From Halobacteriovoraceae bacterium (GTDB taxonomy: Bacteria > Bdellovibrionota > Bacteriovoracia > Bacteriovoracales > Bacteriovoracaceae): a DNA stretch of 54,885 nt. Of this stretch, positions 18,628 through 41,255 are shown in pieces. The stretch spans positions 1 to 54,885 of the forward strand of contig PAZA01000005.1 of assembly GCA_002715375.1 (NCBI GenBank), in the 5' to 3' direction. Positions within the stretch are counted from its first letter, which is position 1. The number at the start of each line of letters is the position of its first letter. Below the pieces are notes generated by a model. That model ran no database searches. It was not told where the DNA came from and was given only the letters and a program-made list of their open reading frames with translations. The position numbers were made by a program, and so were the translations under genes.

Positions 18628-19401
18628 TTAGAAAATAAGGTCTTCTTTTCTCATCCAACCCTTTTTATTTTTATCAACCTCTATCTTGACCCAGTTCTTT
18701 TCACTTTTATCTTGTAAATTAACCTCAGCTCCTTCATGAAGGACAAATAACTTCACATTATCTTTGCCAATTCCTGAAAAAACAGAGGCCTTAGAAACTT
18801 TTACAACACCAAAGTCACGTTCCCAAAAAGCATAATTCAAAAAAGGAATGGAAAAAAGTAAAACGAAGAAAAAGGATAAGTTACGAATCCATTTAAATGA
18901 CTCATATTTCAATAATAAATACAAAAGAGACCCTACCCAAAAAAGGACCCAAAAACTCATCAACGAAATGGTTACTTCTTTTTGATTGAGAGGAAAAAGT
19001 CCTCTTGGATCTAAAAAAGGCTTTGCTTCAACTTTATCCTTAGTTTTTGATCTCAGATATTCAAGATTATATTTTACATCCCCATCCCGTGGAAGAACTT
19101 CACTGGATTTCTTGAAGTGAAACAGAGCACTCCCAAGCTCACCTGCTCTAAAGTAGGCATTTCCTAAATTAAAGTGGACCTCTCCCCAACTTCCCTTATC
19201 AAATTCAAGTAAGGCTTTATACTCCTTAATTGCATCCGTGTATCGACCTTCATAATAGGACTTATTGGCCTTTAAAAACAGCTCTTGAACTTTTAAAGCC
19301 TCACCAAAAGATTCACTTACCCCAGAAAAGAGGATCAAAAATGAAAAAAGGGTTGAGGCAAGAATTGCTTTTCCTGTCTTAATTATCGTGAATAGACTCA
19401 T
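18628..19401 (-). CDS. batE: BatE-like protein: signal peptide, TPR repeats, TM segments, C-terminal SH3b domain
   Basis: TPR-like YYEGRYTDAIKEYKALLEF / NLGNAYFRAGELGSALFHFKKS. Two TM segments. The SH3-like end reads NWVKIEVDKNKKGWMRKEDLIF. Last gene of the Bat operon, with a 4-nt overlap with batD. Confidence 0.6.
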   Translation of the reverse strand: MSLFTIIKTGKAILASTLFSFLILFSGVSESFGEALKVQELFLKANKSYYEGRYTDAIKEYKALLEFDKGSWGEVHFNLGNAYFRAGELGSALFHFKKSSEVLPRDGDVKYNLEYLRSKTKDKVEAKPFLDPRGLFPLNQKEVTISLMSFWVLFWVGSLLYLLLKYESFKWIRNLSFFFVLLFSIPFLNYAFWERDFGVVKVSKASVFSGIGKDNVKLFVLHEGAEVNLQDKSEKNWVKIEVDKNKKGWMRKEDLIF

Positions 19402-21287: not shown

Positions 21288-23193
21288 CTTGATAGCTCCT
21301 TCTTCCCCGCATTTTGCGTTTTAAATACTTTTTCCTTTCATCACTTAAAGAGTTTAACCACCTTAAAGCTTCAGCTTCACTCATTTTTTTACCACGACTT
21401 CCCTTTTTCGTCTCAGGGTCTTGATTCTGAATTGAGGAAGCCTGACTCTTTACCTGGTCCTCTTTATTTTTCTCTTTCCCATCTTTTTCATCTTCATTAG
21501 AGGCTTTGGCGACACCTTCTGACTTCTTATCTTGCTCTTTTTGATCCTCTTTCCCTTTATTACCCTTTTTTTCATTCTCGTTCTTGGAAACCTTATTTTG
21601 ATCATCATTATTAGTACTATTTTGATCACCAGACTTTTGATTTTCAGCCTGTTGTTTCCCTTGTTGTCCTTTCTGATCTTTCTGGTCTTTTTGCTTATTT
21701 TGACCTTTCTGGTTCTTTTGACCACTTTGATTTTTTTGGTTGGCCTGTCTTTTTTTCTCCTCTTCAATTCTTCTCTTAATTTCTTTCCTTACAAAATTCA
21801 GGTTATGCTTAGCATCCTTATCATTAGGGTTTATTTCCAAGGTCTTTTTATAGTACCCAACAGAGTCCTTCAGCTTCCCCATTTTGTAAGCAGTATTACC
21901 CAAATTATAGTAAGATTTTGCGCTTAGGTCCTTGTCTCCTTTTTTGGCCGTAGACTCAAAAAGCTTAAAGGCCTTATCATATTCCTTCATTTTATAATAA
22001 GAATTTCCCGTATTATATTTTAATTCCAAATCTTTAGGTTCTTTTACCTGAGCTTCAAGAAAACTTTTTAAAGCCTTGTTATAATTCTTATTTTGATAAT
22101 CGCTTTCCCCATTCTTTCGTTGGGAATCCCATGGGGCAGCTTGAACCTCCTGCAAAGGCAAAGTCGTAAGTAATAAGAAAACCATAATTCCTAGAACAGT
22201 TTGACTTCCTTTACGCTCCTTAACAAAAACCTCTAAAATCAAAAGCAAAAGGGCCACCATAAGAGGCCACTGAAACCTCTCTTCAAACCGCTTCCTCTTC
22301 CCACTTACAAGTTCTTTAGACTCAACTTTTTTTGTAATATCATTATAAATTTTTTCCAAATCCAGGTCGCCAGTTATAGACCGAACATAACTTCCCCCGG
22401 TATCAAGCGCTATTTTTTGAAGAGTTTCCTCATCCAATTGAGTCGTTACAACATTTCCTCGAGAGTCTTTTTTGAACCCTCCTCTTTTCCTATCAGGAAT
22501 GGGAGCACCCTCTTCCTTACCAATCCCTATCGTATAAATCTTAATCCCTTCTTCATAGGCCATCTTGGCCATTTTTATTGGCTCCCCATTATGATCTTCT
22601 CCATCAGTAATTAAGATAAGCACTCGTGACTTTTTATTTTGGGTATCAAAAGCACTGATTGACTTTTTTATGGCGTCTCCAATAGCCGTTCCAGGAACTG
22701 GAATAAGATCTGTATCCAATTCATCTAAAAAAATTCTTACGGCACCATAATCCAGAGTAAGTGGGCTTTGAAGAAAGCTCGTTCCAGAAAATGCTACCAA
22801 TCCCACTCTATCGCCCTGCATCATATTAAGGAGGTCAATAATTTCACGCTTGGCCCTCTCTAAACGATTAGGAGAAACATCTTCCGCCAACATACTTTCA
22901 CTAACATCTAAGGCCAGAATAATATCAACACCTCTCCGATTCACTTCCTCCCATTGAAACCCCCATTTAGGTCTTATTAAGGCAAGCACGCAGAAAAAGA
23001 AGGCAAAAATTAAAAGAAAAGCCTTTACCTTCTGCCTTTTCGCAGAAAAACCCTTAAGCAATTTACCTTTTAATTCCTCACTAACAAAAAGTTCCAAAAG
23101 CCTTTTTTTCTTTTTAAAGGCCCAAATATAAAATAAGACAAGTAAGGGAATGATGATTAAGCACCATAAATATTGAAGGTTTGCAAACTTCAA
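21271..23193 (-). CDS. batB: BatB-like VWA-domain membrane protein fused to TPR repeats (BatB+BatC-like) with a 130-aa Q/K/N/D/E low-complexity region
   Basis: N-terminal TMs, MIDAS motif LDVSESM, ITDGEDH, TM, TPR (YNTGNSYYKMKEYDKAFKLFE; YNLGNTAYKMGKLKDSVGYYKKTLEINP), then QKNQSGQKNQKGQNKQKDQKDQKGQQGKQQ... Confidence 0.7.
   Translation of the reverse strand: MKFANLQYLWCLIIIPLLVLFYIWAFKKKKRLLELFVSEELKGKLLKGFSAKRQKVKAFLLIFAFFFCVLALIRPKWGFQWEEVNRRGVDIILALDVSESMLAEDVSPNRLERAKREIIDLLNMMQGDRVGLVAFSGTSFLQSPLTLDYGAVRIFLDELDTDLIPVPGTAIGDAIKKSISAFDTQNKKSRVLILITDGEDHNGEPIKMAKMAYEEGIKIYTIGIGKEEGAPIPDRKRGGFKKDSRGNVVTTQLDEETLQKIALDTGGSYVRSITGDLDLEKIYNDITKKVESKELVSGKRKRFEERFQWPLMVALLLLILEVFVKERKGSQTVLGIMVFLLLTTLPLQEVQAAPWDSQRKNGESDYQNKNYNKALKSFLEAQVKEPKDLELKYNTGNSYYKMKEYDKAFKLFESTAKKGDKDLSAKSYYNLGNTAYKMGKLKDSVGYYKKTLEINPNDKDAKHNLNFVRKEIKRRIEEEKKRQANQKNQSGQKNQKGQNKQKDQKDQKGQQGKQQAENQKSGDQNSTNNDDQNKVSKNENEKKGNKGKEDQKEQDKKSEGVAKASNEDEKDGKEKNKEDQVKSQASSIQNQDPETKKGSRGKKMSEAEALRWLNSLSDERKKYLKRKMRGRRSYQVEKDW
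21385..21774 (-). repeat. imperfect short tandem/low-complexity coding repeats inside batB (encode the Q/K/N-rich segment)
   Basis: The DNA shows reiterated CTTT(C/T)TG(A/G)TC-type units (e.g. ctttctgatctttctggtctttttgcttattttgacctttctggttcttttgacc). This region generates the shadow ORFs 21450-21767 (-) and 21532-21927 (+). Confidence 0.55.
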
Positions 23194-23217
23194 GGGGTTC
23201 TCCTCGTTCTTTCTCTT

Positions 23218-24207
23218 TTAAGGAATTCTTCTCAACTTTGTTTGCCCCAAAAATATTTCCAAAAGCAAAATGAAGAGTCCTGGAATTAAAAAATGGGCAA
23301 ACATTTCATTGTACTCCGTATACTTTTTAACCTCTATTTTTGTTTTCTCTAACTTATCAATAAGGCCATAAATATTTTTAAGTTCATCGGTATTAGTCGC
23401 TCTAAAATATTTTGCTCCTGTCTCTGAAGCGACTTGCTTAAGAGTCGTTTCATCTAAATCAACTTCTTGATAAATATAACGTTTTCCAAAAAGTGTATCT
23501 GCTAAAAAAGGAGCCTTCCCTTTAGTTCCAACCCCAATCGTATAAACCTTAACCCCATAGTGATCTGCAAGTTTTGAAGCCTGTAAGGGACTTAAACGTC
23601 CTACAGTATTCCTTCCATCGGTCAGAGCAATCATTATTTTTGACTTGGACTTTAGATCTTTCATTCGATTCACACCAATTCCAATGGCTTGTCCCAAAGC
23701 TGTAGCAGATCCGGCCATACCGATTTTAATGTTATCGAGAAAATCCATAACGATGCCATGATCTAGAGTTAAAGGGCATTGAGTAAAAGCTTCCTCTCCA
23801 AAAACAACTAATCCAATCCTGTCATTGGGTCTCTTTTTAATAAAATCTCTTACAACTTGTTTAACAACCTCGAGGCGGTTAACCCTTTTTCCTTCCCTTT
23901 TGAAATCTAAAGCCTTCATACTTTCAGACGTATCAAGGACGAGTAATATATCGACCCCCTCCGAATTTGTTTTTGTAAACTGCCTTCCAGACTGTGGTCT
24001 AGCAAGGGCTAAAACAAGAAGGATGATGGCCAAGGATCGAAGAATGAGGAGAATTAATTTAGGATTATTTTTGGCCCTCATATTCATTGACTTCAAGAGG
24101 TCAATACTCGAAAAGCGGATCTTTCCTCCACTTTTCTGTCCCCAAACAAAAATAGGAATAATGAATAGTAACAAACATAGAAACCAAGGGTAAGCCAGAC
24201 GGATCAT
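23218..24207 (-). CDS. batA: BatA-like VWA-domain membrane protein
   Basis: Two N-terminal TMs, MIDAS motif LDTSESM, LTDGRNT, YTIGVG and a C-terminal TM. Typical BatA architecture. Confidence 0.75.
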   Translation of the reverse strand: MIRLAYPWFLCLLLFIIPIFVWGQKSGGKIRFSSIDLLKSMNMRAKNNPKLILLILRSLAIILLVLALARPQSGRQFTKTNSEGVDILLVLDTSESMKALDFKREGKRVNRLEVVKQVVRDFIKKRPNDRIGLVVFGEEAFTQCPLTLDHGIVMDFLDNIKIGMAGSATALGQAIGIGVNRMKDLKSKSKIMIALTDGRNTVGRLSPLQASKLADHYGVKVYTIGVGTKGKAPFLADTLFGKRYIYQEVDLDETTLKQVASETGAKYFRATNTDELKNIYGLIDKLEKTKIEVKKYTEYNEMFAHFLIPGLFILLLEIFLGQTKLRRIP

Positions 24208-25271
24208 AAAACCGAATCCTCCTCTTTTTCTTTCTCATCTTCTTTTTTTGGCATTGTTTCCAAAACGAATTTTTTTGCATCTTGCAAAAGGACTTCTCCT
24301 TCCTCTTCACTTTTCTCTATATTGGCAAATTTAACAAGGTCCGCTTCTTTTAAAATTCCCAAGAAAACTTTTTGCTGAGGAGGTTTAACAGAGTTTAAAA
24401 GGTCAATATCTCTTCGAATTTCTTCTTGTGTCCGCTCTTTAGCTGGGAATTCGTAACTATCTTCTACGTATGAACGAACAATATCTGAAAGAGAAAAATA
24501 AAAACTTTTCCTTTGAGAATAATCTGACAAAGATGGAATTCCTTTTTTTAACTTTTCTAATTCAGAAAGGGCCCTTTCATGAGGAGGAGTTAAAGGAAGA
24601 GCTTCACTTTCAGCTCCCTTCCTTTTAAAAAAGTAATAGATCAAAAAGCCTAAAACACCGAGTATCAAGATTCCCCCGGCAATATAAGCAAGAGTTTTAG
24701 ATGGAGAAAATGTCAAAGGTTTAATATCTCTTAGTCCTTCTTCTTTGCCCTTTAAGCCTTCCGACTCAGACCCGTTATTTTTTCCTTTAGAAGCCTTGAC
24801 GTCTTCATTTTTTACTTCAACAAAAATTTCAGGAGAACTTAAACGAACCTCTTTCCCATCTTTATTTTTAAAGGCCAATTTCAAAGAAGGAAGGATGTAA
24901 GAACCAGTTAGGTCTGCTTCTAATTTATACCACCTCTCAAAAACCCATTCTCCATCTTCTTTAACCGGACCTTCTTTACCAAAGTCTACAATCCTAAAAC
25001 CTTGGATTTTATCACCACTTTCAGGGAGAAAAAGAGGTCCTTCCTTAAATGAAGAAAAAGCTCTAAGGCGGAAAGTAACTATTTCACCAGGTTTGATAAT
25101 GGCCTTGTCAACTTCGGCCTTTAAAAAACTAGTCATCTTATTTGTATCTGCAAATACATTTTGAAGAGGGGCATAATAACAAAAAAAGAGGACCAAAAAG
25201 ATAGAAAGCGAAAAAGGAGCCTCTTTCAAAAAATTAATAGACCTATTGCGTGTTTCAGTTCTCATTTCCAC
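24204..25271 (-). CDS. membrane protein: periplasmic BatD-like beta-sandwich module, TM, then a DUF4381-like cytoplasmic domain
   Basis: The N-terminal module reads KPGEIVTFRLRAFS...LTGSYILPSLKLAF. The TM is LAYIAGGILILGVLGFLIYYFF. The C-terminal part PPHERALSELEKLKK...FYFSLSDIVRSYVEDSYEFPAKERTQEEI resembles DUF4381, which usually precedes batA. Domain calls by eye. Confidence 0.5.
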   Translation of the reverse strand: MEMRTETRNRSINFLKEAPFSLSIFLVLFFCYYAPLQNVFADTNKMTSFLKAEVDKAIIKPGEIVTFRLRAFSSFKEGPLFLPESGDKIQGFRIVDFGKEGPVKEDGEWVFERWYKLEADLTGSYILPSLKLAFKNKDGKEVRLSSPEIFVEVKNEDVKASKGKNNGSESEGLKGKEEGLRDIKPLTFSPSKTLAYIAGGILILGVLGFLIYYFFKRKGAESEALPLTPPHERALSELEKLKKGIPSLSDYSQRKSFYFSLSDIVRSYVEDSYEFPAKERTQEEIRRDIDLLNSVKPPQQKVFLGILKEADLVKFANIEKSEEEGEVLLQDAKKFVLETMPKKEDEKEKEEDSVL

Positions 25272-26503
25272 CTTTCCACAAAAAGCTGTACATTTTCGTT
25301 TTTAAATGATTCTTGAACAAGTTTCTTATAGAGCCCTTGGCCTTTTTCTACTTTATAACTCTGCTTAACAACCTTTTTAATGTCATCATAAGCATATTCT
25401 TGAGGACGAGTTTTTCCGGTTACTATATACATTTTATAGGCTCCAGATTTTAAAAAAGGCCCACTCCATTCCCCCTTCTCCTTTTTAAACAGATTATTCA
25501 TCTGAGAAGGGTTCAAATCTAAACCAGGTGATGGAAGGCCTTTTGTAAGTGTGATCCCTTTTTCAAAAAGAGCAGAAGGAACCCTTTTTTTAATTTCAGT
25601 TATAAGGTCTTTTGTTTCTTTCTTCCTTCCTTTTAAATAGGCTTTTATCTTTTGGGAGTGATCCTTTCCTTTAAACTCAATTTTTGTAAGGGTTATCACT
25701 GACTTTTGAGAAAATTTACTCCGGTTGGCCTTAAAATAATTTTTAAGGTCGACCTCATCAACCTTAATCTTTTTTTCAACTTCATTTTTAAGAAGTCTTT
25801 CAACAAGGAGCTGCTTTGTAACATTTTCTAGTTTTTTTATAAATGATGGGTCTTTTTCTAAGCCTAGTCTTTTTGATTTCTGCCAAAGAATTTGGTTGAT
25901 GACATATTGCTGAAGTAGTTCCTGTTTAACTTTATGAGATTTCAAATTTTCCTGTCCTTTACGATCAAAGGAATCCACGTACTCATTTAACTGATAATCG
26001 TAAATGTTCTGATCTCCTACCTTAGCGACAATAGCTGCCCCTTTTCTTTTCACCGCCCCCTTATCTGTTGAAAGAGTTGTTTTATCCTTAATAAAAGCTC
26101 TCGCGGCACCAAACTTTTTAAGCTTTTCTAAAAGGGTTACGATCCTCTTATTAGCTTCAGTTACATAAGTTGATTGAGGGTCCAACAATTCGACTTTATA
26201 AAACCAGCTGATGGCCTCTTCCAAATGCCCTTCCTCTTCATATAATTCACCAAGTGAATAGGACATTTTTGCTTTTACTTTGGCATCAACCTTTCCCTTC
26301 TCAAGGTATTTTTCATACTGTCTGGCCGCTTGATTCACAAGTCCAGCAGCATGTAACTTCGAAGCAACATCCTTGAAAACATCAACACCTCCTTGATCGG
26401 AGGTTTTTCCACTTTCAAAGTTTTGGAAGACTAAAACACCAAGCAAGATACCTAATACACCTTGACTAAAAAAAAGAATCATAAACCTTGTGTCTTTTTT
26501 CAC
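25262..26503 (-). CDS. membrane-anchored TPR plus SurA-N/PpiD-like chaperone plus parvulin-like (possibly inactive PPIase) protein
   Basis: N-terminal TM. TPR-like YSLGELYEEEGHLEEAISWFYKVELLDP. The SurA/PpiD-like segment is IVAKVGDQNIYDYQLNEYV...QELLQQYVINQILWQKSKRLGL...KNYF. The parvulin-like end is GEWSGPFLKSGAYKMYIVTGKTRPQEYAYDDIKKVV. Confidence 0.5.
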   Translation of the reverse strand: MKKDTRFMILFFSQGVLGILLGVLVFQNFESGKTSDQGGVDVFKDVASKLHAAGLVNQAARQYEKYLEKGKVDAKVKAKMSYSLGELYEEEGHLEEAISWFYKVELLDPQSTYVTEANKRIVTLLEKLKKFGAARAFIKDKTTLSTDKGAVKRKGAAIVAKVGDQNIYDYQLNEYVDSFDRKGQENLKSHKVKQELLQQYVINQILWQKSKRLGLEKDPSFIKKLENVTKQLLVERLLKNEVEKKIKVDEVDLKNYFKANRSKFSQKSVITLTKIEFKGKDHSQKIKAYLKGRKKETKDLITEIKKRVPSALFEKGITLTKGLPSPGLDLNPSQMNNLFKKEKGEWSGPFLKSGAYKMYIVTGKTRPQEYAYDDIKKVVKQSYKVEKGQGLYKKLVQESFKNENVQLFVERWK

Positions 26504-27393
26504 CTTTTTCTTTCCCTTTCTCTAAAAAATTTAATGAGAGTGTCAAAATAAGAACTGTCTGTTCTCACATCAAGAAAGTCTATTCCATTTTTTTGGAAGA
26601 ACTTTTTTTTCTCTCTTAAAGCCGTCTTCGCTTTTTTTGAAAAAGACTGTACACCACTTAAATCACTTGTATTAATAAGAAGAGACTCTCCAGTTTCTGC
26701 ATCCTCTAGTTCAATGTAGCCAATATTAGGGATTTCTATTTCTCTAGGGTCAGTAACGGAAATGGCCACAAGGTCATGCTTTCTTGAAAAACTTCTCAGT
26801 TTATTTTCAAACCCTTCACCTTGAAAGTCAGAAATTAAAAAGGTAATGGCCTTTTTCTTCATGACTTTATTCATAAAATCAATCGGAACAGAAATGTCCG
26901 TTCTTTTGGCCCTCGACTTAAAAGAAAGGATGTCTCGGATAAGGGACCAAACATGACCCCTCCCTTTTTTTGGAGGTATATAATGCTCAACGTGATCAGA
27001 AAAAATGATGAGTCCAACCTTATCATTGCTTCTTAAAGCGGTGTAGGCAAGAAGGGCAGTAATTTCAGCAGACACTTCATTTTTAAATTTTTTCTGAGTT
27101 CCAAAATGAGAAGAAGCTGAGACATCTACAAGAAAAAAAACGACGAGCTCCCTTTCATCTCGAAACGTCTTTATATATGGTTTTTGACTTCTTGCAGTTA
27201 CATTCCAATCAATATTCCTTATATCATCACCTGGAACATACTCTCTAACTTCCTCAAATTCCATACCACGGCCTTTGAAGACGCTTAAATACTCTCCTGC
27301 AAAAGCGTCGTTGACCATATACTTGGCCTTAAACTGAATTTTTTTTACTTTGGCCAATAATTCATCATCAAAAAACTGTGTCGGTTCGTTCAT
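26500..27393 (-). CDS. DUF58 (VWA-like) protein, MoxR partner
   Basis: GEYLSVFKGRGMEFEEVREYVPGDDIRNIDWNVTAR is the DUF58 signature, followed by VDVSASS. It sits directly after moxR. Confidence 0.8.
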   Translation of the reverse strand: MNEPTQFFDDELLAKVKKIQFKAKYMVNDAFAGEYLSVFKGRGMEFEEVREYVPGDDIRNIDWNVTARSQKPYIKTFRDERELVVFFLVDVSASSHFGTQKKFKNEVSAEITALLAYTALRSNDKVGLIIFSDHVEHYIPPKKGRGHVWSLIRDILSFKSRAKRTDISVPIDFMNKVMKKKAITFLISDFQGEGFENKLRSFSRKHDLVAISVTDPREIEIPNIGYIELEDAETGESLLINTSDLSGVQSFSKKAKTALREKKKFFQKNGIDFLDVRTDSSYFDTLIKFFRERERKR

Positions 27394-35294: not shown

Positions 35295-35672
35295 TTAAGA
35301 TCTTTTCTCAACAATCCTTCTTATGGTTTCTTTTAGTTTATCCACCTTAAAAGGCTTCAAGAGCCAGGCCATAACAACTCCGACCTTTTTCGCCTCTAAA
35401 ATAAGTTTTGGATGGCTTTCTGTAGTACACATAACAGTCGGAATTTGCTTATACTTTTCATCTTCAGCTTGAACTTTTATAAACTCCATTCCGTTCATTT
35501 CAGGCATGTTTACATCAAGCAATATAAGGTCAAACGTATCTTTTTCCTTAAGCTTTTCCAAAGCATCATAACCATCAACGGCTTCCACAATACTATGGTC
35601 AGCAGCAGTCAAGATATTTCTAAGAGTTGTTCTTACTGATTCCGAGTCATCTACAACTAAAATATTGGCCAT
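35295..35672 (-). CDS. stand-alone CheY-like receiver protein
   Basis: Complete receiver residue set: VVDDS, LILLDVNMPEMNG, MCTTE and LLKPF. No output domain. Confidence 0.8.
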   Translation of the reverse strand: MANILVVDDSESVRTTLRNILTAADHSIVEAVDGYDALEKLKEKDTFDLILLDVNMPEMNGMEFIKVQAEDEKYKQIPTVMCTTESHPKLILEAKKVGVVMAWLLKPFKVDKLKETIRRIVEKRS

Positions 35673-35762
35673 AAAAATCCTCTACCTTCTTATCAGACAT
35701 TAAGTCTTCTTTTGATCTATCATAACTCGGAAAAGGGCCAATTATTGAATGACGGAAAATTA

Positions 35763-35798
35763 TTCCAAAAAAGGGCTTTTTTAGGCCCTTTTTTGGAA
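35763..35798. terminator. strong bidirectional terminator hairpin downstream of the glutaminase gene
   Basis: Perfect 14-bp inverted repeat TTCCAAAAAAGGGC (35763-35776) / GCCCTTTTTTGGAA (35785-35798) with an 8-nt loop. The GGGC/GCCC core is flanked by A6/T6 runs. Confidence 0.7.
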
Positions 35799-35809
35799 TC
35801 TTTGGTCAA

Positions 35810-37375
35810 TTATCTTTTTGAAGCTGACTTCTTTGGTAACTTATACTTTTTTAACAAGACTTCAACTTCCTTATGACCTTCTCTTTCAGCATCATTTAAA
35901 GGAGTTCCACCCCATCGATCCTTTGCTTGAGGATCAGCTGAGTGACCCAATAAATACTCAACCATTTCTTTTTTGCCTTCGGAAGAAGCCAGGTGAAGGG
36001 CTGTTCTTCCATCATAGTCTGCTTGGTTTATATCAAAGCCTCTTGCAAGAAAAGCCTGAACTTCCCTAATAGAACCTTTTGAAGCTGCCCATAACAAAGA
36101 CTGAACATCATCACTAGACACCTGGTTTAGGTTAACTCTTGGGTCCATTTTCTTTGAGTGCCCCGCAATAAGGCTATCAAAATTGTGAAAGTTGAAATTC
36201 CCCACAAGCCTTTCACAAAAGTCGATTCCTCTAACTGAGTTACCCATCTTATCTAATGGAGGAGACCAAACACAAATGCCCATAAGGTTTGGAATAACAA
36301 TCAATAAACCACCTCCAACACCACTTTTTGCAGGTAACCCTATAGTGAAAGCAAACTCCCCTGAAAAGTCATACATACCACATGAAGACATGAGAGAGAG
36401 GCAATTCTTAACAGTATCAGGAGCGAACAGTTTATCCTGAGTAAGAGGACAAATGCCACTATTTGCAAGAGTTGCAGAAACTGTCGCCATCGACTCAGCT
36501 GTTAACTCAATTGAGCAACATTGAAAGTAAAACTCCAGAGTCTCAATAAGCTTCGTATTGGCTGGGAAAGAATTATTTTCCCTCATGAAGTAACCTAGAG
36601 CAAAGTTCCTATCTGCCGTCGCTCTTTCAGATAAATAAACCGCATTATTAAAGGAAGGTTGATTTCCACCAGCCGCTCTTTTCCACATGTCCAATACATA
36701 ATCAAAACGCTCAGCCGGCTCAAGAGATGGTTTAACCATAGAACTTGTCATGATGGCACCAGCATTAATAAAAGGATTATGAGGTCTCTTTTTCGGGTCG
36801 AGGGTAATCTCATTGAAACCATGACCACTTGGTTCACGACCAACATGAGTATGAACCTTATCTTGGCCAAACTCCTCCAAGGCCAGACAATAATTCAATG
36901 TTTTTGAAGTTGATTGAATACTAAAATGCTGATCACATTCACCAGTTGAAAAAATCTGACCATCAATTGTACAAATTGAAACTCCAAAATTTTCTGGAGC
37001 CACTCTTTTTAGCTGGGGAATATAATCCGCAACCTTACCACCATCATTCTTCTTAACTTCCTCATATATTTTTTCAATTTCTTTAGAAAAGCGATCAAAC
37101 TCGGGAATGACCATTTGATTTTGAAAAACTTTATCAAAGAGTATCGTTTGGTCCTGTATCAATTTATCAAATTCCTTATGGGTAAGTTCACTCACCCCAT
37201 TCAACTGATTAGTTTTTTCATAAAAGTTCTTCAGGCGTGGGTCTTTTTTAGAAAGTCCACTTTTTTTAAGAACATCCAAAATCTCGCGAAGATTCACCCG
37301 CCCCTTTCCTTCCTTATCAAGAGACCTAAAAGACTGACCTAAACTGGTAGCTTCAGCATTATGACTTTCTAACAC
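35810..37375 (-). CDS. glsA: glutaminase with metazoan GLS-type architecture: EF-hand-like N-domain, glutaminase core, C-terminal ankyrin repeats
   Basis: Core motifs are [20 protein letters not shown] (Ser-x-x-Lys), [23 protein letters not shown] and [15 protein letters not shown]. The N-terminal part reads [19 protein letters not shown]...[18 protein letters not shown]. The C-terminal ANK repeats read [24 protein letters not shown]...[19 protein letters not shown]. Confidence 0.9.
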   Translation of the reverse strand: [521 protein letters not shown]

Positions 37376-37476
37376 AACTCCCCCTTAGTTTTATATTTTC
37401 CTATTCTGAAAGTTAATAATTCAAAACCATTTTTCGCACCTAAGAGCTTTAAGGCTCAAGTGCTCAAATACGCAAA

Positions 37477-37500
37477 GGGGGGAGCAACATGGCTCCCCCC
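37477..37500 (-). terminator. GC-rich hairpin between GSII and glutaminase genes (probable terminator/processing site)
   Basis: GGGGGGAGC (37477-37485) pairs with GCTCCCCCC (37492-37500) across a 6-nt loop. On the minus strand only TTTG follows, so the U-tract is weak. Confidence 0.45.
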
Positions 37501-37527: not shown

Positions 37528-38574
37528 TTAAAGATTGCAGACCGTCTTCATAAGAAGTTCTGCAACGATATAAGGATCAGAATTGGCTCCAGGTCTCCTA
37601 TCTTCAATATACCCGTAGCCCTTCCTTGTTGTGGCCATAGGAATTCTTATCGAAGCTCCTCTATCTGAATTTCCAGAACGGAATTCATTGATACTACAAG
37701 TCTCATGAAGACCTGTTAGTCTTTCAGCAAGACCTGAACCATAGTTTTCAATATGGAGTTGATGCTTTTCTGCCAAGTTGTTAACAGCAGATTCAATGGC
37801 CCCCATTCCTTTGGACTTGTCTCTCATATCCTTTGTAGAAAAGTTTGTATGCATTCCTGCACCATTCCAGTCACCCTTAATAGGCTTATTCTCAAAAGAA
37901 ACTGTCACATCATATTTTTCAGAGATTCTTTGGAGTAGAAAACGCGCTAACCAAACATGATCAGACATTGTTAGAGGGTCAGCAGCTTCGCCATCAAAAG
38001 CTCTATAACCGATTTGGAATTCCCACTGACCAGGCATAACTTCAGCATTTGTCCCATAAATATTTAAACCTGCATCCTCACAAGCTTTTGCGTGCTCATC
38101 ACATATGTCACGACCAAAAATATTTGAAGCTCCTACGCCACAATAGAATGGTCCTTGTGGAGCAGGGTAACCGCCCTCTGGCCAACCTAATGGACGACCT
38201 GATTTATTGAAAAGTGTATATTCTTGCTCAAAGCCAACATAAGCATCTTGCTCATTGCCACCTTTTTCCATAACTTCTACAAGTGAAGCTCTCTTGTTAG
38301 TCGCATGAACAGTTCCATCAGCATTAAAAACTTCACAAAGCGCTAAAAAGTAACCTTCACCCCTTAAAGGATCCTTAACAACTCGAACTGCTTTTAATTC
38401 GCAATCTGAATCATTTCCTGCGGCTTGATTAGTAGAAGAACCATCAAATCCCCACTCTGGAAGATCGGAAACGTTTAACTCTCCCTCAAAAGGCACTAGC
38501 CTGGATTTTGAGCGAAGGGCCTGGGTTGGCTCAGCACCATCTAACCAAATGTATTCTACGAATGCTCTTTTCAT
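37528..38574 (-). CDS. glnII: glutamine synthetase type II (eukaryote-type GSII)
   Basis: 348 aa. VEYIWLDG...LRSK; GWPEGGYPAPQGPFYCGVGASNIFGRDICDEHAKACEDAGLNIYGTNAEVMPGQWEFQIG; NGAGMHTNFS; RGASIRIP. This is collinear with plant/animal GS and bacterial GlnII, not the dodecameric GSI. Confidence 0.9.
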   Translation of the reverse strand: MKRAFVEYIWLDGAEPTQALRSKSRLVPFEGELNVSDLPEWGFDGSSTNQAAGNDSDCELKAVRVVKDPLRGEGYFLALCEVFNADGTVHATNKRASLVEVMEKGGNEQDAYVGFEQEYTLFNKSGRPLGWPEGGYPAPQGPFYCGVGASNIFGRDICDEHAKACEDAGLNIYGTNAEVMPGQWEFQIGYRAFDGEAADPLTMSDHVWLARFLLQRISEKYDVTVSFENKPIKGDWNGAGMHTNFSTKDMRDKSKGMGAIESAVNNLAEKHQLHIENYGSGLAERLTGLHETCSINEFRSGNSDRGASIRIPMATTRKGYGYIEDRRPGANSDPYIVAELLMKTVCNL

Positions 38575-38901
38575 TTTTAAACTCCTCTCCTGCCCGGAAA
38601 ATTAAAGTAGTGGGCAAAAATTTATACTGAAAATTAAAAGAAATGTTTCTAACACAAATAAAAAGACAATAATATTTGGGATCTAGCTGACAGCACAAGT
38701 AGGACTTAAATAAGTTTTTATACTTTTTCTCGCTCATATTGTAAGATACCACCTACACACGACATATCAATACATTTAATATACAAAAAAAAGTAAAAAG
38801 AAAACGTACTTCGAAAAAAAAGATAAGCCCTTTCCAAATTAAACTGTAAAAAATATTTTTTTATGAGAAGAGCTATAACTATACAAATAAAGGTTAAGTT
38901 T

Positions 38902-39618
38902 TTACTTAGGTCCTTTTAGGATATTTTCTCTTATCGCATAAGAAACCATTTCCGCGTTATTTTTAAGGTCAAGCTTTTCTAAAATGCGGTTCCTGTAAGT
39001 AGAAATTGTTTTTGAGCTTAAATTGAGGTCATAGGCGATTTCTTTGGTCAAACGCCCCTGAGCAAGGCCCATAAAAACCTCTCTCTCTCTTTTAGAGAGG
39101 ATGGCCAGCTTATTTAACTCATTTCCTGCATTTATATCTTCGCTTTTCAATGAACTTCTTAACTTATCATGTTCTTTTAAAAATCTATCTTCCTCATCAT
39201 CGAAAAACTGCAGAAGCAAGTTCCCACCAAAATAACGCCTACCTGCAAAAACTTCTTGAAGAGCAAAAGCCATTTGATCAATTGAACTATCTTTTACAAT
39301 GTACCCAGCAGCCCCTAGCCTCACTGCAAGCTTAACGTAGTCTGAGTTTGAAAACATCGTTATGAAAAGGACGGAAAGGTCTGGGTAAAGCAACCTTACT
39401 CTTTTAAAGACCTCTATGCCACTTTCCCCAGGAAGAGATATATCTAGTAGCAACATATCAACAGAGTTGCGCTCTAACTCAACAAAGGTCTCAGCACCGT
39501 TGGAGCACTCGATCAAATCTGCGTCAAAAGGGGATTCGTTGATCATTTCAACAACCCCTTTTCTGACAATCTGATGATCATCCGTGATTATTATTTTCTT
39601 TTTTCTGTTCAAGGTCAT
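38902..39618 (-). CDS. NarL/FixJ (LuxR-type HTH) response regulator, no cognate kinase adjacent
   Basis: Receiver (IIITDDHQIVRKG, MLLLDISLPGESG) plus a LuxR HTH (LSKREREVFMGLAQGRLTKEIAYDLNLSSKTISTYRNRILEKL). Confidence 0.85.
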   Translation of the reverse strand: MTLNRKKKIIITDDHQIVRKGVVEMINESPFDADLIECSNGAETFVELERNSVDMLLLDISLPGESGIEVFKRVRLLYPDLSVLFITMFSNSDYVKLAVRLGAAGYIVKDSSIDQMAFALQEVFAGRRYFGGNLLLQFFDDEEDRFLKEHDKLRSSLKSEDINAGNELNKLAILSKREREVFMGLAQGRLTKEIAYDLNLSSKTISTYRNRILEKLDLKNNAEMVSYAIRENILKGPK

Positions 39619-39782
39619 ACTTTCCTAAATACGTATAATTACTAGGTAATCATGATTTTAGAAGTTGAGCACATTAACTTTTACTAAATAGATTTTCAAT
39701 ACATTTTCTAAGAAAATAAACGCTGTCTAGTTTTAAATTAAGTTTATAAAAAATAAGAACTTTGTCCTTATAACAAAAAAAA

Positions 39783-41255
39783 CTAATGACCAATAGAGTC
39801 TTCCTCTTTTTGTAAGTCCTTTCCTGCATTTACATGTTTTAAATTATATTTTGAACGGTGCTTAAGAGGATCCTTTTTTCTTGTATAAAAAGGCGTTTCC
39901 CCATCATAACCTCTATCGAAGCCTAGAAATGATTCAGGCGTAAAACAATAAGCACTTTCGTGGTGCTCTCCCATGTCTAAACCTTCCTTTTCTTCTTTTT
40001 TAGAAACTCTAAGTCCGACAGAAAGATCAATTAGTTTAAAGATCACCCAAGAAACACCAAAAGCCGCTAAAGCGATAATGAATATTCCTTTTAATTGTGA
40101 AAAGATTTGCCCAAATGAAGCTAGGTTACCAAAAATACCTACTGCTAGAGTACCCCAAATTCCACAAACCAAATGAACTGAAATTGCCCCAACTGGATCA
40201 TCGACCTTTATTTTGTCGAAAAACTTTATCGAAAAAACGACCAAAACCCCTGCTATAAAGCCGATAAGGAGGGCCTCATTAAAATTCATCTGGTCAGCCC
40301 CCGCCGTAATCCCTACAAGACCAGCCAAAGCTCCGTTTAGCGTCATGCCTAAATCGGGCTTCTTCGATATTCTCCATGAAACAATCATAGAAGCTAAAAG
40401 ACCTGATGCACCTGCAAGAGCTGTCGTCATAAAAACAAGAGATAGCTTATCAGGAGCTGCTGAAAGGACAGAACCTCCGTTAAAGCCAAACCATCCAAAC
40501 CATAAAAGAAAAACACCGATTGTTGCCAAAGGATAATTATGGGGAACAAGCTTCCTTTCCCCCTCATATTTGCCTAAACGTGGACCTAAGCAAATAGCAC
40601 CTGCCAAAGCAGCCCATCCTCCTAATGAGTGAACAATACTCGACCCTGCAAAGTCATAAAAAGGTATATTCAAAGTTTCTAAAAAACCTCCTCCCCACTT
40701 CCACATGCCGATAATAGGATAAACAACTGCCACAAAAAGGGTCGAGAAAATTAAAAATGAAGAGAGTTTTATTCTTTCACAAACAGCTCCACTTACAATT
40801 GTTGCCGCAGTGGCAGCAAACACCGCCTGAAAGATAAAGTCTGTGTAATAGGTATAAGAAGCATTATAATCCGATGTAAGGCCACTAGGGCCTGGGTCTA
40901 TTCCAAAACCGCCAAAGCCAAAAAAGCTCCCCGCAAAATCTGCCCCTGGATACATCAGGTTAAAACCACAAAAGGAATAAGTTAAAAGGCCTATGGCCAT
41001 AATGGCAGAGTTTTTAAAAAGGATATTAACTGTATTTTTAGACTGAGTCATGCCTGCTTCAAGACAGGCAAACCCAAGATGCATAACAAAAACCAGCCCG
41101 GTCGCCAATAAAATCCAAAGATTATGAGTGGTAAATGATAAATCTGCTAGAGTCTTTTCCGAGCCCAAGGAGCTTGACCAAGAAGTTAAAGCAAGAAAAA
41201 CAAAGATCATCTTTTTAAATCTTAAGAGTTTAATATACTTATTCATAAAATTCAC
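39783..41255 (-). CDS. amt: ammonium transporter (Amt family) with signal peptide and a roughly 70-aa C-terminal extension
   Basis: WILLATGLVFVMHLGFACLEAGMTQSKNTVNILFKN, DFAGSSIVHSLGGWAALAGAICLGPR, WFGWFGFNGGS and VHLVCGIWGTLAVGIF are typical Amt motifs. Confidence 0.9.
   Translation of the reverse strand: MNFMNKYIKLLRFKKMIFVFLALTSWSSSLGSEKTLADLSFTTHNLWILLATGLVFVMHLGFACLEAGMTQSKNTVNILFKNSAIMAIGLLTYSFCGFNLMYPGADFAGSFFGFGGFGIDPGPSGLTSDYNASYTYYTDFIFQAVFAATAATIVSGAVCERIKLSSFLIFSTLFVAVVYPIIGMWKWGGGFLETLNIPFYDFAGSSIVHSLGGWAALAGAICLGPRLGKYEGERKLVPHNYPLATIGVFLLWFGWFGFNGGSVLSAAPDKLSLVFMTTALAGASGLLASMIVSWRISKKPDLGMTLNGALAGLVGITAGADQMNFNEALLIGFIAGVLVVFSIKFFDKIKVDDPVGAISVHLVCGIWGTLAVGIFGNLASFGQIFSQLKGIFIIALAAFGVSWVIFKLIDLSVGLRVSKKEEKEGLDMGEHHESAYCFTPESFLGFDRGYDGETPFYTRKKDPLKHRSKYNLKHVNAGKDLQKEEDSIGH

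What the first reader, a model, noticed from the sequence alone, without database searches (positions are those of the whole stretch)
35810..37375. Bacterial glutaminase with the complete three-module architecture of animal kidney-type glutaminase (GLS)
Ordinary bacterial GlsA proteins are about 300-aa catalytic cores. This 521-aa ORF is collinear with metazoan GLS/GLS2 through three modules.
- (1) An N-terminal helical EF-hand-like domain: [19 protein letters not shown] and [34 protein letters not shown]. As I recall human GLS, it reads LKSTGLRTSDPRLKECMDM and [34 protein letters not shown].
- (2) The serine-lysine glutaminase core, including the post-core segment [31 protein letters not shown] (human [31 protein letters not shown]).
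- (3) C-terminal ankyrin repeats: [24 protein letters not shown]...[19 protein letters not shown] (human [24 protein letters not shown]...DRWNNTPMDEALHFGHHDV).

By eye, the similarity to the animal enzyme looks much higher than is typical between GLS and E. coli GlsA. This points either to inter-domain gene transfer or to a bacterial lineage that retains the ancestral form of the animal enzyme. In animals the ankyrin and N-terminal modules mediate regulation and filament formation, so their role in a bacterium is open.
Basis: partly seen in the sequence, partly recalled or inferred. Interest (0 to 1): 0.7.

Follow-up and report, generated by a model that had tools for sequence, protein, structure and literature searches.

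The report
Bacterial kidney-type (GLS-like) three-domain glutaminase
This marine predatory-type bacterium (Bacteriovoracaceae) encodes a glutamine-splitting enzyme with the same three-part build as the human kidney enzyme, but the build is common across many bacterial groups and I recall it as already published, so this gene is an ordinary member of a known family.

Summary
ORF 35810-37375 (minus strand, 521 aa) has three modules: EF-hand_14 (res 16-91), Glutaminase (113-399) and three ankyrin repeats (427-510). It aligns end to end with human KGA (514 bits, 46% identity over 497 aa; core 54%). E. coli GlsA1/2 match only at 35-37%, over the core. An AF2 model superposes on human KGA (TM 0.84-0.87).

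It is not exceptional. The top 120 database hits carry glutaminase plus ankyrin domains, and nearly all also EF-hand_14. They span Bdellovibrionota, Myxococcota, Planctomycetota, Cyanobacteria, Bacteroidota, Ignavibacteria, Margulisbacteria and Gammaproteobacteria. NCBI names those that carry a name "glutaminase A". As I recall it, Pasquali et al. 2017 (JBC) already traced the animal architecture to bacteria.

Codon usage is native. A sister MAG has the same gene order. The sampled bacterial proteins form one clade (85%) apart from animals. A recent transfer from a eukaryote is therefore disfavoured; the direction of the deep event is unresolved here.

All catalytic residues are kept, so this is most likely an active cytoplasmic glutaminase. 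Three points are new here:
- The gene sits in a conserved nitrogen cluster (amt, glnII, gls).
- The mammalian filament-interface residues are kept, but the phosphate ligands R317 and K320 are not.
- Some bacterial members have a canonical Ca2+-binding EF-hand loop.

Interest is low.

The parts
35810..37375 (-). GLS-type (kidney-type-like) three-module glutaminase gene, 521 aa, GTG start
   Evidence: ORF; Pfam; NCBIfam TIGR03814 'glutaminase A', 324 bits against a 255 cut-off; 514 bits to human KGA; AF2 model pLDDT 86.7; Foldseek TM 0.84/0.87 to 8gwr_B
37103..37330 (-). N-terminal EF-hand-like helical module (res 16-91). Loop 1 is D20[11 protein letters not shown]31 and is non-canonical (Glu at loop position 3, Lys at position 5).
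   Evidence: PF17959 EF-hand_14, E 7e-12. The model shows two helix-loop-helix units with paired short strands at 26-28 and 63-65. Loop comparison.
36179..37039 (-). Serine-lysine glutaminase catalytic core (res 113-399). Y118, S155, K158, N204, E250, N257, Y283, Y335 and V353 match human Y249, S286, K289, N335, E381, N388, Y414, Y466 and V484.
   Evidence: PF04960, E 2e-113; residue mapping on a 129-sequence alignment; rmsd 1.5-1.7 A to GAC crystal structures
35846..36097 (-). C-terminal ankyrin module (res 427-510; three helix pairs at res 416-512 in the model)
   Evidence: Ank_2 E 9e-14 and Ank_4 E 2e-14; 39-41% identity to the KGA/GLS2 ANK regions; helices
37378..37386 (-). Shine-Dalgarno-like purine run AAGGGGGAG just upstream of the GTG start
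   Evidence: Read directly from the sequence
35762..35799 (-). Intrinsic-terminator-like hairpin (15 pairs) plus T run, 11 nt after the glutaminase stop codon
   Evidence: sequence
37477..37500 (-). 9-bp G+C hairpin (GGGGGGAGC-CATGTT-GCTCCCCCC) between glnII and the glutaminase gene. Possibly a weak terminator or attenuator for glnII.
   Evidence: Read from the sequence. It was not called by the consensus scan because the T run is interrupted. Its function is inferred.
37528..38574 (-). glnII: type II (eukaryote-type) glutamine synthetase, 348 aa, directly upstream on the same strand
   Evidence: Gln-synt_N and Gln-synt_C. NCBIfam GlnII model 449 bits, below its 500 cut-off. Best PDB match is 4bax (I recall Streptomyces GlnII), then entries I recall as yeast, human and plant GS.
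38902..39618 (-). NarL/LuxR-type response regulator between amt and glnII
   Evidence: Response_reg and GerE. A gene with the same architecture lies beside the Nannocystis cluster.
39783..41255 (-). Ammonium transporter (Amt), 490 aa, at the head of the cluster
   Evidence: PF00909, E 4e-116
35295..35672 (-). Single-domain CheY-like response regulator downstream, beyond the terminator. Whether it belongs to the unit is uncertain.
   Evidence: Response_reg, E 3e-24; 99% conserved in the sister MAG L001

Best explanation
The ORF is a native, chromosomally inherited, cytoplasmic L-glutamine amidohydrolase (glutaminase) of the GLS type, in a marine Bacteriovoracaceae (Bdellovibrionota) genome. It belongs to a large multi-phylum bacterial family whose members carry an EF-hand-like N-terminal module, a serine-lysine catalytic core and C-terminal ankyrin repeats, as animal KGA/GLS2 do.

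Mechanism:
- Shown by residue conservation: Ser155 attacks the glutamine amide, assisted by Lys158 and Tyr335. Tyr118, Asn204, Glu250, Asn257, Tyr283 and Val353 hold the substrate. The products are glutamate and ammonium.
- Inferred from homology to KGA/GLS2 structures: the enzyme forms a tetramer (Asp255, Phe263 and Arg265 correspond to human D386, Y394 and K396). The ANK module sits between the N-terminal domains of a dimer and damps activity, as reported for GLS2.
- Inferred: the lateral surface that mammalian enzymes use for filament stacking is conserved, so substrate-driven higher oligomers are possible.
- Inferred: the mammalian phosphate switch is absent. R317 is Gly186, K320 is Glu189 and E325 is Pro194, so activation is not phosphate-dependent in the mammalian way.
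- Inferred: the EF-hand loop is non-canonical, so Ca2+ control is unlikely in this member.

Physiology (inferred from gene context): the gene lies in a nitrogen cluster, amt, NarL-type regulator, glnII, gls. It probably provides the catabolic arm (Gln to Glu plus NH4+) opposite the GlnII synthetase. The extra modules may help restrain futile cycling.
For: - Architecture and collinearity.
- Structure: AF2 pLDDT 86.7. Foldseek gives TM 0.84/0.87 to human KGA 8gwr_B over 506 columns, and rmsd 1.5-1.7 A to GAC chains.
- Catalytic residues are invariant in the window protein and in 118-121 of the 121 bacterial three-module homologues.
- Native status: GC3 is 0.310 against a window mean of 0.319. 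The synonymous codon distance has z -0.26.
- A 92%-identical gene with identical neighbours occurs in an independent Bacteriovoracaceae MAG. Its 90% cluster holds several separately recorded 521-aa members, one of them seen on 7 contigs (Tara Oceans among its sources). The flanking genes are ordinary bacterial housekeeping genes.
- Family breadth.
- Bacterial three-module proteins are monophyletic at 85%, and window plus P0001-3 at 100%.
- Nitrogen-cluster linkage: glnII is adjacent in 6 of 14 independent lineages. amt lies within 6 kb in 8, and either gene in 9.
- Filament interface: F224, F242, N244, Y247, E281 and Q285 match human F355, F373, N375, F378, D412 and Q416. They are kept in 93-98% of bacterial members and are largely different in E. 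coli GlsA1/2. The residue list comes from PMC13142944 and PMC10912226.
- The phosphate ligands R317 and K320 are not kept. Glu occupies the K320 position in 99 of 121 members.
- There is no N-terminal hydrophobic or presequence-like segment (sequence).
Against: - No biochemical data exist, to my knowledge, for any bacterial three-module glutaminase. Activity, oligomeric state and the roles of the ANK and EF-hand modules are all inferred.
- The AF2 model is a monomer, so the ANK placement in a tetramer is untested.
- The activation loop is poorly modelled (pLDDT about 60 around res 181-190).
- glnII and gls are separated by a 152-nt spacer with a G+C hairpin, so co-transcription is not shown.
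- The linkage is absent in 5 of 14 lineages, including a Halobacteriovoraceae relative.
Confidence: 0.85

Rival explanations
1. The gene was acquired recently by this bacterial lineage from a eukaryote (animal or protist). This would explain the animal-like architecture.
For: - EF-hand and ankyrin modules are more typical of eukaryotes.
- Identity to human KGA is 46%, similar to the 50-53% to homologues from other bacterial phyla.
- The core-only NJ tree is unresolved.
Against: - Codon usage and GC3 are indistinguishable from the neighbouring genes.
- There are no introns, and the gene has a bacterial SD-like run and terminator.
- The closest relatives (57-93% identity) are all bacterial.
- The activation loop is of the bacterial consensus type (FNEIT/FNELT), not the animal LRFNKLF.
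- The full-length NJ tree puts the protein inside a bacterial clade (85%) that excludes animals (100%).
- The operon context with amt and glnII is shared across phyla.
Confidence: 0.03
2. At family level, the three-module gene arose in an early eukaryote. It passed once, anciently, into bacteria and then spread by horizontal transfer. On this reading the window gene is a descendant, not a retained ancestor of the animal enzyme.
For: - In the full-length NJ tree rooted on E. coli GlsA, protist sequences branch basally and the bacterial clade is sister to animals. Supports are weak (19-45%).
- The distribution is patchy across phyla.
- The domain types have a eukaryotic flavour.
Against: - The sister of the whole three-module clade is a bacterial (cyanobacterial) core-only glutaminase, at 99-100%.
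- Canonical Ca2+-type EF loops occur in 19 of 121 bacterial members, across several lineages. None of the 4 eukaryotic sequences examined has one; theirs are degenerate. This fits bacteria holding the less derived state.
- The family is deeply diverse in bacteria.
- The nitrogen-operon context is conserved.
- As I recall the abstract, Pasquali et al. 2017 concluded that the origin was bacterial.
- The basal position of long-branch protists may be a rooting artefact.
Confidence: 0.15
3. The protein is a secreted or injected ankyrin-repeat effector of a predatory bacterium that depletes glutamine in prey. It would not be a housekeeping enzyme.
For: - Bacteriovoracaceae are predators.
- The ANK region gives weak NCBIfam similarities to Legionella Ank effectors (E 5e-8 to 2e-4, far below the cut-offs).
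Against: - There is no signal peptide or hydrophobic N-terminus.
- The same architecture occurs in free-living cyanobacteria, myxobacteria, planctomycetes and Woeseiaceae.
- The gene is linked to amt and glnII, not to secretion genes.
- The ANK similarity is highest to the KGA/GLS2 ANK module.
Confidence: 0.03
4. Assembly chimera or contamination: a eukaryotic gene mis-binned into a bacterial contig.
For: None beyond the eukaryote-like architecture.
Against: - The ORF is continuous and flanked on both sides by bacterial genes on the same strand.
- Independent assemblies give the same arrangement.
Confidence: 0.01

Closest known systems
Human kidney-type glutaminase KGA (GLS; PDB 5UQE, 8GWR) and liver-type GLS2 (8SZL)
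   Same: - Same three modules in the same order, with no large insertions. Identity is 46% to KGA and 44% to GLS2.
- All catalytic and substrate residues are shared.
- Three ANK repeats, with a C-terminal tail of similar length (119 aa against 111).
- The tetramer residue D386 and the filament-interface residues F355, F373, N375 and Q416 are kept, with conservative F378Y and D412E.
- Predicted fold TM is 0.84-0.87.
   Different: - No mitochondrial presequence or long N-terminal extension; the protein starts at about KGA residue 128.
- The activation loop is [11 protein letters not shown] instead of GLRFNKLFLNE. The phosphate ligands R317 and K320 and the R317-E325 salt bridge are missing, and F322 of the BPTES pocket is Thr.
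- The EF loop keeps a partial D..G..V...E pattern, whereas the human loop is fully degenerate.
- The gene is in a bacterial operon context.
Bacterial multidomain 'glutaminase A' proteins (e.g. Nannocystis radixulma P0021, Leptolyngbya sp. Heron Island J P0098, Ca. Uabimicrobium amorphum P0078, Halobacteriovoraceae MAG P0056, Ignavibacteria/Kapaibacteria P0053)
   Same: - Same family and architecture, at 50-61% identity.
- Same bacterial-type activation loop.
- Often the same amt and glnII neighbourhood.
   Different: - The window protein belongs to the short class (C-tail about 108-136 aa, 3 ANK, as in animals). About two thirds of sampled members have a tail of about 222-267 aa with extra ANK repeats.
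- Cyanobacterial and Halobacteriovoraceae members have a canonical EF-hand Ca2+ loop. The window protein does not.
Core-only bacterial glutaminases: E. coli GlsA1 (YbaS, 1U60), GlsA2 (YneH), B. subtilis YbgJ (1MKI)
   Same: Same Pfam Glutaminase fold and the same catalytic Ser-Lys-Tyr machinery.
   Different: - Only 35-37% identity.
- No N-terminal EF-hand-like module and no ANK module.
- The filament-interface and dimer-dimer residues are largely different.
Leptolyngbya core-only glutaminase (L013 9574-10602, 342 aa)
   Same: 48% identity to the window core. It is the sister of the whole three-module clade at 99-100% bootstrap.
   Different: It lacks both flanking modules and most interface residues.

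Membership tests
Glutaminase superfamily (Pfam PF04960; serine-dependent beta-lactamase-like amidohydrolase) | Full-length match to the glutaminase domain above the curated threshold | tested here: met
   378.6 bits against a cut-off of 27, profile positions 1-286 of 286. TIGR03814 gives 324 bits against 255.
Glutaminase superfamily (Pfam PF04960; serine-dependent beta-lactamase-like amidohydrolase) | Catalytic Ser-x-x-Lys plus Tyr, and the substrate-binding Tyr, Asn, Glu, Asn, Tyr and Val | tested here: met
   S155, K158, Y335, Y118, N204, E250, N257, Y283 and V353 align with human S286, K289, Y466, Y249, N335, E381, N388, Y414 and V484.
Glutaminase superfamily (Pfam PF04960; serine-dependent beta-lactamase-like amidohydrolase) | Hydrolysis of L-glutamine to L-glutamate and ammonium | not testable with these tools
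   Needs an enzyme assay.
GLS-type (KGA/GLS2-like) multidomain glutaminase | N-terminal EF-hand-like helical domain (PF17959) directly preceding the core | tested here: met
   EF-hand_14, E 7e-12, 46 bits against 23.7. 30% identity to the KGA N-terminal domain. The model shows a helix-loop-helix pair.
GLS-type (KGA/GLS2-like) multidomain glutaminase | C-terminal ankyrin repeats homologous to those of KGA/GLS2 | tested here: met
   Ank_2 and Ank_4 above their cut-offs. 39-41% identity to the KGA/GLS2 ANK regions, E 1e-24 to 1e-26. Three helix pairs in the model.
GLS-type (KGA/GLS2-like) multidomain glutaminase | Overall fold superposable on full-length KGA | tested here: met
   Foldseek to 8gwr_B: TMq 0.84, TMt 0.87, rmsd 3.6 A over 506 columns. 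To 5uqe_B: 0.82 and 0.85.
GLS-type (KGA/GLS2-like) multidomain glutaminase | Groups with GLS-type proteins, apart from core-only GlsA, in a phylogeny | tested here: met
   NJ trees: the clade of three-module proteins plus the cyanobacterial core-only enzyme separates from E. coli GlsA1/2 at 99-100%. Support for the three-module clade alone is weak (28-69%). The bacterial three-module proteins form an 85% clade in the full-length tree. These are NJ trees only; no ML tool was available.
Phosphate-activated, filament-forming mammalian glutaminase (regulatory type of GAC/KGA/GLS2) | Activation-loop phosphate ligands Arg317 and Lys320, and the Arg317-Glu325 salt bridge | tested here: not met
   Gly186, Glu189 and Pro194 occupy these positions. 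Glu occupies the K320 position in 99 of 121 bacterial members. The residue roles come from PMC13142944 and PMC10912226.
Phosphate-activated, filament-forming mammalian glutaminase (regulatory type of GAC/KGA/GLS2) | Lateral filament-interface residues (F355, F373, N375, F378, D412, Q416) and the lid/activation-loop Tyr249-Phe318 lock | tested here: met
   F224, F242, N244, Y247, E281 and Q285, plus Y118 and F187. This is sequence conservation only.
Phosphate-activated, filament-forming mammalian glutaminase (regulatory type of GAC/KGA/GLS2) | Actual filament formation coupled to catalysis | not testable with these tools
   Needs negative-stain or cryo-EM of the purified protein with glutamine, with and without Pi.
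Phosphate-activated, filament-forming mammalian glutaminase (regulatory type of GAC/KGA/GLS2) | Mitochondrial targeting presequence | tested here: not met
   The protein begins about 20 residues before the EF-hand-like domain and has no extension.
Canonical Ca2+-binding EF-hand proteins | 12-residue loop D-x-[DNS]-x-[DNS]-G-x-[ILV]-x-x-x-[ED] | tested here: not met
   The window loop is [12 protein letters not shown], with Glu at position 3 and Lys at position 5. 19 of 121 bacterial homologues meet the pattern, e.g. DTDGSGTITREE in cyanobacteria. EF-hand_7 scores 18 bits, below its cut-off of 30.

The most novel reading that the evidence does not exclude
Bacterial GLS-type glutaminases would be a regulated, filament-capable enzyme class in their own right.
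- They keep the mammalian filament interface but use a Glu-containing activation loop in place of the phosphate switch.
- In some lineages they use a functional Ca2+-binding EF-hand.
- They work together with GlnII and Amt in a conserved amt-glnII-gls module.

That module, pairing the two 'eukaryote-type' enzymes of the glutamine/glutamate cycle, would be the prokaryotic source of both eukaryotic GS (type II) and GLS.
Probability: 0.15. Interest if true: 0.55.

Novelty: new member of a known kind. Interest (0 to 1): 0.22.

Why it matters
The finding adds little as stated. The architecture is common in bacteria and its link to the animal enzymes is, as I recall, published.

It could matter as a tractable model. 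A small, presequence-free bacterial orthologue of a cancer-drug target carries all three modules. It keeps the filament interface but lacks the phosphate switch. It could therefore be used to separate the contributions of the ANK and N-terminal modules, and of filamentation, to catalysis.

The recurrent amt-glnII-gls linkage suggests a physiological setting. The setting is control of a glutamine synthesis and hydrolysis cycle, where those modules would act. My literature searches found no description of this linkage.

Tried and rejected
- **Literature.** Pasquali et al. 2017 (doi 10.1074/jbc.M117.787291, PMC5500818) is not held. Its content is therefore cited from memory and through a review. 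Searches for papers on bacterial EF-hand/ANK glutaminases, or on glnII-glutaminase-amtB clusters, found nothing relevant.
- **Core-only NJ trees** (129 and 75 taxa). The backbone is unresolved (supports 3-30%). The position of animals and protists relative to bacteria cannot be read from them. No ML program was available.
- **Compositional evidence for transfer.** None found.
- **RNA elements.** Rfam gave no match at gathering thresholds and ARAGORN found no tRNA. There is no glutamine riboswitch in the long AT-rich leader of glnII.
- **Promoters.** The sigma-70 consensus scan found no more sites than in shuffled sequence. No promoter is assigned.
- **Ankyrin effector idea.** The NCBIfam hits to Legionella Ank effectors and MzaA are generic ANK similarity, far below the cut-offs.
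- **Canonical Ca2+ binding** in the window protein. Rejected on the loop sequence.
Full report
**1. The observation**

A purine-rich Shine-Dalgarno-like run (AAGGGGGAG, 37378-37386) precedes the start. A 15-pair hairpin plus T run (35762-35799) follows the stop. All peptide strings quoted for the ORF are in the translation.

Pfam finds three modules, all above the curated cut-offs:
- EF-hand_14, res 16-91, E 7e-12.
- Glutaminase, res 113-399, E 2e-113, covering the full profile.
- Ankyrin repeats: Ank_2 at 427-510, E 9e-14, and Ank_4, E 2e-14.

Against the PDB, the best matches are human KGA (5uqe and 8gwr, 514 and 512 bits). Query residues 21-513 are collinear with KGA 148-644. GLS2 scores 480 bits. 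E. coli YbaS scores 188 bits and B. subtilis YbgJ 158 bits. With the catalytic core alone the contrast remains: 400 bits against 189.

BLASTP gives 46% identity to KGA over 497 aa (N-terminal module 30%, core 54%, ANK 39%). It gives 35% to GlsA1 and 37% to GlsA2, over the core only.

An AlphaFold2 model built on a 48-sequence alignment has pLDDT 86.7 and pTM 0.77. It shows an EF-hand-like pair of helix-loop-helix units, the core, and three ANK helix pairs. Foldseek places it on near-full-length human KGA (8gwr_B) with TM 0.84/0.87 and rmsd 3.6 A over 506 columns.

**2. The organism, and whether the gene is native**

An uncultured Bacteriovoracaceae MAG (L001) carries a 92%-identical gene. It has the same neighbours: amt, a LuxR-type regulator, glnII, gls, CheY, a HAD hydrolase and a histidine kinase. 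The 90%-identity cluster of the closest hit (P0001) holds several separately recorded 521-aa members. One of them was seen on 7 contigs with Tara Oceans among its sources, and another member is named 'Bdellovibrionota bacterium'.

The rest of the window is an ordinary bacterial chromosome. It encodes PNPase, an RpoD-like sigma factor, dUTPase, the BatA-D/DUF58 operon, methionine-salvage genes, LipA/LipB and two-component systems.

The glutaminase gene has GC 0.391 and GC3 0.310, against a window mean GC3 of 0.319 (z -0.24). Its synonymous codon usage is as close to the window average as that of a typical gene (z -0.26, rank 16 of 41). Nothing indicates a recent arrival or an assembly chimera.

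**3. How unusual the architecture is in bacteria**

It is not unusual. All of the best 120 proteins (50-93% identity, 93-100% coverage for all but two) carry Glutaminase plus Ank domains, and nearly all also EF-hand_14.

Those that carry names are called 'glutaminase A' by NCBI. They come from Nannocystis and other Myxococcota, Halobacteriovoraceae, Planctomycetota (including Ca. Uabimicrobium), Cyanobacteria (Leptolyngbya and others), Dadabacteria, Ca. Thiodiazotropha, and Ignavibacteria/Kapaibacteria. The genome scan adds Saprospiraceae, Marinamargulisbacteria and Woeseiaceae.

In the exhaustive search of 50%-identity representatives, most of the best 150 clusters match the query from about residue 15 to 510.

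Two length classes exist among the 121 bacterial sequences I aligned:
- About one third have a C-terminal tail of about 108-136 aa, with three ANK repeats. The window protein (119 aa) and human KGA (111 aa) fall in this class.
- About two thirds have a tail of about 222-267 aa, with additional ANK repeats.

As I recall its abstract, Pasquali et al. 2017 (J Biol Chem 292:11572) concluded that the multidomain architecture of human glutaminases was inherited from bacterial ancestors. I could not open the paper. [quoted passage not shown]

**4. Phylogeny**

Only neighbour-joining was possible; no ML tool was available.

On the 303 core columns the backbone is unresolved. Only three results are robust:
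- Window plus P0001-P0003 form a clade (100%).
- Animals form a clade (99-100%).
- All three-module proteins plus a cyanobacterial core-only glutaminase separate from E. coli GlsA1/2 (100%).

On 490 full-length columns the picture is clearer. Eukaryotes were identified through cluster look-ups (Rhodelphis, Palpitomonas, Rigifila, Diphylleia, Pyxidicula, Drosophila, Penaeus, Halocaridina, Salvelinus and human).
- All 57 sampled bacterial three-module proteins form one clade (85%).
- The window protein sits in that clade's short-form subclade, near Halobacteriovoraceae (weak support).
- Animals form a separate clade (100%).
- Protists are unresolved at the base (19-45%).

The gene is therefore not a recent import from an animal or protist. 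The root, and so the direction of the single deep inter-domain event, is not resolved here.

Two observations lean towards a bacterial origin:
- The sister of the whole three-module clade is a bacterial core-only enzyme (Leptolyngbya, 48% identical to the window core).
- Canonical EF-hand Ca2+ loops occur in 19 of 121 bacterial members. Examples are cyanobacteria (DTDGSGTITREE), Halobacteriovoraceae (DLNQDGQINKWD), Ignavibacteria and Nannocystis. The four eukaryotic sequences examined at this site are degenerate there.

**5. What it does and how**

Every residue known to act in catalysis or substrate binding in human GLS is conserved. Y118, S155, K158, N204, E250, N257, Y283, Y335 and V353 correspond to human Y249, S286, K289, N335, E381, N388, Y414, Y466 and V484. 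I therefore take it to be an active L-glutaminase. It has no signal peptide or presequence, so it is cytoplasmic.

The residues that build the mammalian tetramer are conserved or conservatively replaced: D386 is D255, Y394 is F263 and K396 is R265.

So are the residues of the lateral six-helix filament interface. Those residues (F355, F373, F378, D412, Q416, and GLS2 N308 = GLS N375) are listed in PMC13142944 and PMC10912226. In the window protein they are F224, F242, Y247, E281, Q285 and N244. They are kept in 93-98% of the bacterial three-module proteins and are largely different in E. coli GlsA1/2.

By contrast, the activation loop reads [11 protein letters not shown] instead of GLRFNKLFLNE.
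- The 'lock' Phe (F318, here F187) is kept.
- The phosphate ligands R317 and K320 are Gly and Glu. Glu occupies the K320 position in 99 of 121 bacterial members.
- The R317-E325 salt bridge cannot form.

My inferences are as follows:
- The enzyme is a tetramer, and possibly a substrate-driven higher oligomer.
- It is not switched by phosphate in the mammalian manner.
- Its ANK module probably restrains the N-terminal 'scissor' movement, as proposed for GLS2.

These steps are inferred, not shown. The statement in the review that bacterial glutaminases 'lack a conserved filamentation interface' rests on core-only enzymes such as B. subtilis GlsA1. By sequence, it does not hold for this family.

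**6. Gene context**

On the minus strand the order is:
- amt, 39783-41255.
- A NarL/LuxR-type response regulator, 38902-39618.
- glnII, 37528-38574.
- A 9-bp G+C hairpin, 37477-37500.
- The glutaminase gene, followed by its terminator.
- A CheY-like gene, 35295-35672.

The glnII product is a type II glutamine synthetase. Its best solved relative is 4bax, which I recall as Streptomyces GlnII. Entries I recall as yeast, human and plant GS follow. It scores 449 bits on the NCBIfam GlnII model, just under the 500 cut-off.

The linkage recurs in unrelated lineages:

| Lineage | Arrangement |
|---|---|
| Woeseiaceae, and an unnamed MAG | glnII-amt-gls |
| Marinamargulisbacteria | gls-glnII-amt |
| Nannocystis | amt-glnB-gls-glnII, with a NarL-type regulator and kinase next door |
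| A short-form relative (P0093) | glnII-gls |
| Ignavibacteria/Kapaibacteria | amt-gls |
| Saprospiraceae | gls-amt |
| Leptolyngbya | amt 4 kb upstream |

Five lineages show no linkage. In total, 9 of 14 lineages have glnII and/or amt within 6 kb. That is far more than expected for genes present in a few copies per genome.

This places the enzyme in nitrogen metabolism, as the hydrolytic counterpart of GlnII. I did not find this linkage described in the papers I could search.

**7. Verdict**

The sequence observation is right and the 'GLS-like' label is right. This is one more member of a populous bacterial family that NCBI already annotates and that, as I recall, is already tied in the literature to the origin of the animal enzymes.

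The residual interest lies in three side points:
- The conserved amt-glnII-gls module.
- A conserved filament interface without the phosphate switch.
- Canonical EF-hand loops in some bacterial members.

All three are testable but modest.

Noticed in passing
window 37528-41255 (-); also L003, L004, L005, L012, L017, L018: The three-module glutaminase gene is recurrently linked to a type II glutamine synthetase (glnII) and an ammonium transporter (amt). The linkage crosses phyla: Bdellovibrionota, Myxococcota, Gammaproteobacteria, Margulisbacteria, Ignavibacteria and Bacteroidota. Of 14 lineages, 9 have one or both genes within 6 kb. I found no paper describing it.
   Followed up: partly
window 36790-36822 (-), res 185-195; alignment of 121 bacterial homologues: Bacterial GLS-type proteins keep the mammalian filament-interface residues (F355, F373, N375, F378, D412, Q416 equivalents) in 93-98% of members. 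They replace the phosphate ligands R317 and K320 with Gly/Ser and Glu. The protists Diphylleia and Pyxidicula also have the bacterial-type loop (FNELA). The Lys/Arg phosphate switch therefore looks like a later innovation on the animal lineage.
   Followed up: partly
P0063, P0075, P0079, P0084, P0087, P0098, P0118 (cyanobacteria); P0050/P0056 (Halobacteriovoraceae); P0053/P0099; window res 20-31 = 37283-37318 (-): 19 of 121 bacterial three-module glutaminases have a canonical 12-residue EF-hand Ca2+ loop in the N-terminal module, e.g. DTDGSGTITREE. The window protein ([12 protein letters not shown]), human KGA and GLS2, and two protists are degenerate at this site. Ca2+-regulated glutaminases may exist in cyanobacteria.
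   Followed up: partly
P0163 (Rhodelphis marinus, 1027 aa), P0164/P0312 (Palpitomonas bilix, about 1170-1200 aa), and P0165-P0177: Many top-scoring 50%-cluster representatives are proteins of about 1000-1300 aa with two or three matched stretches. Those checked come from protists. They look like tandem-duplicated GLS-type glutaminases in one polypeptide, or fused gene models.
   Followed up: no
L013 6001-8010 and 9574-10602 (Leptolyngbya sp. Heron Island J): One cyanobacterial locus holds a three-module glutaminase and, 1.5 kb away, a 342-aa core-only glutaminase. The core-only enzyme is the NJ sister of the whole three-module clade and is 48% identical to the window core. An amt gene, an adenylate/guanylate cyclase and a cNMP-binding MscS-like channel lie upstream.
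   Followed up: no
L003 6001-7796 (Marinamargulisbacteria MAG): The reported match range contains 6 stop codons in frame 1. A second ANK-like segment (7512-7748) lies in another frame. This is a frameshift, an assembly error or a separate small ANK ORF after the glutaminase gene.
   Followed up: no
window 38575-38901 (-): The intergenic leader upstream of glnII is 327 nt, very AT-rich and T-tract-rich. It has no Rfam match (no glutamine riboswitch) and no convincing sigma-70 promoter.
   Followed up: partly
L012 2289-4040, L017 2390-3756, L018 2163-4391: Histidine kinases with an N-terminal PilJ-type sensor domain (PF13675), plus a response regulator, recur next to the amt/gls/glnII clusters in three unrelated lineages. 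This may be a dedicated nitrogen-sensing two-component system. The window has a NarL-type regulator inside the cluster but no adjacent PilJ-type kinase.
   Followed up: no
window 19398-27393 (-): A complete Bat/MoxR-type operon: DUF58, BatA-like VWA, VWA-TPR, BatD and a TPR protein. It is an ordinary bacterial feature and is unrelated to the finding.
   Followed up: no
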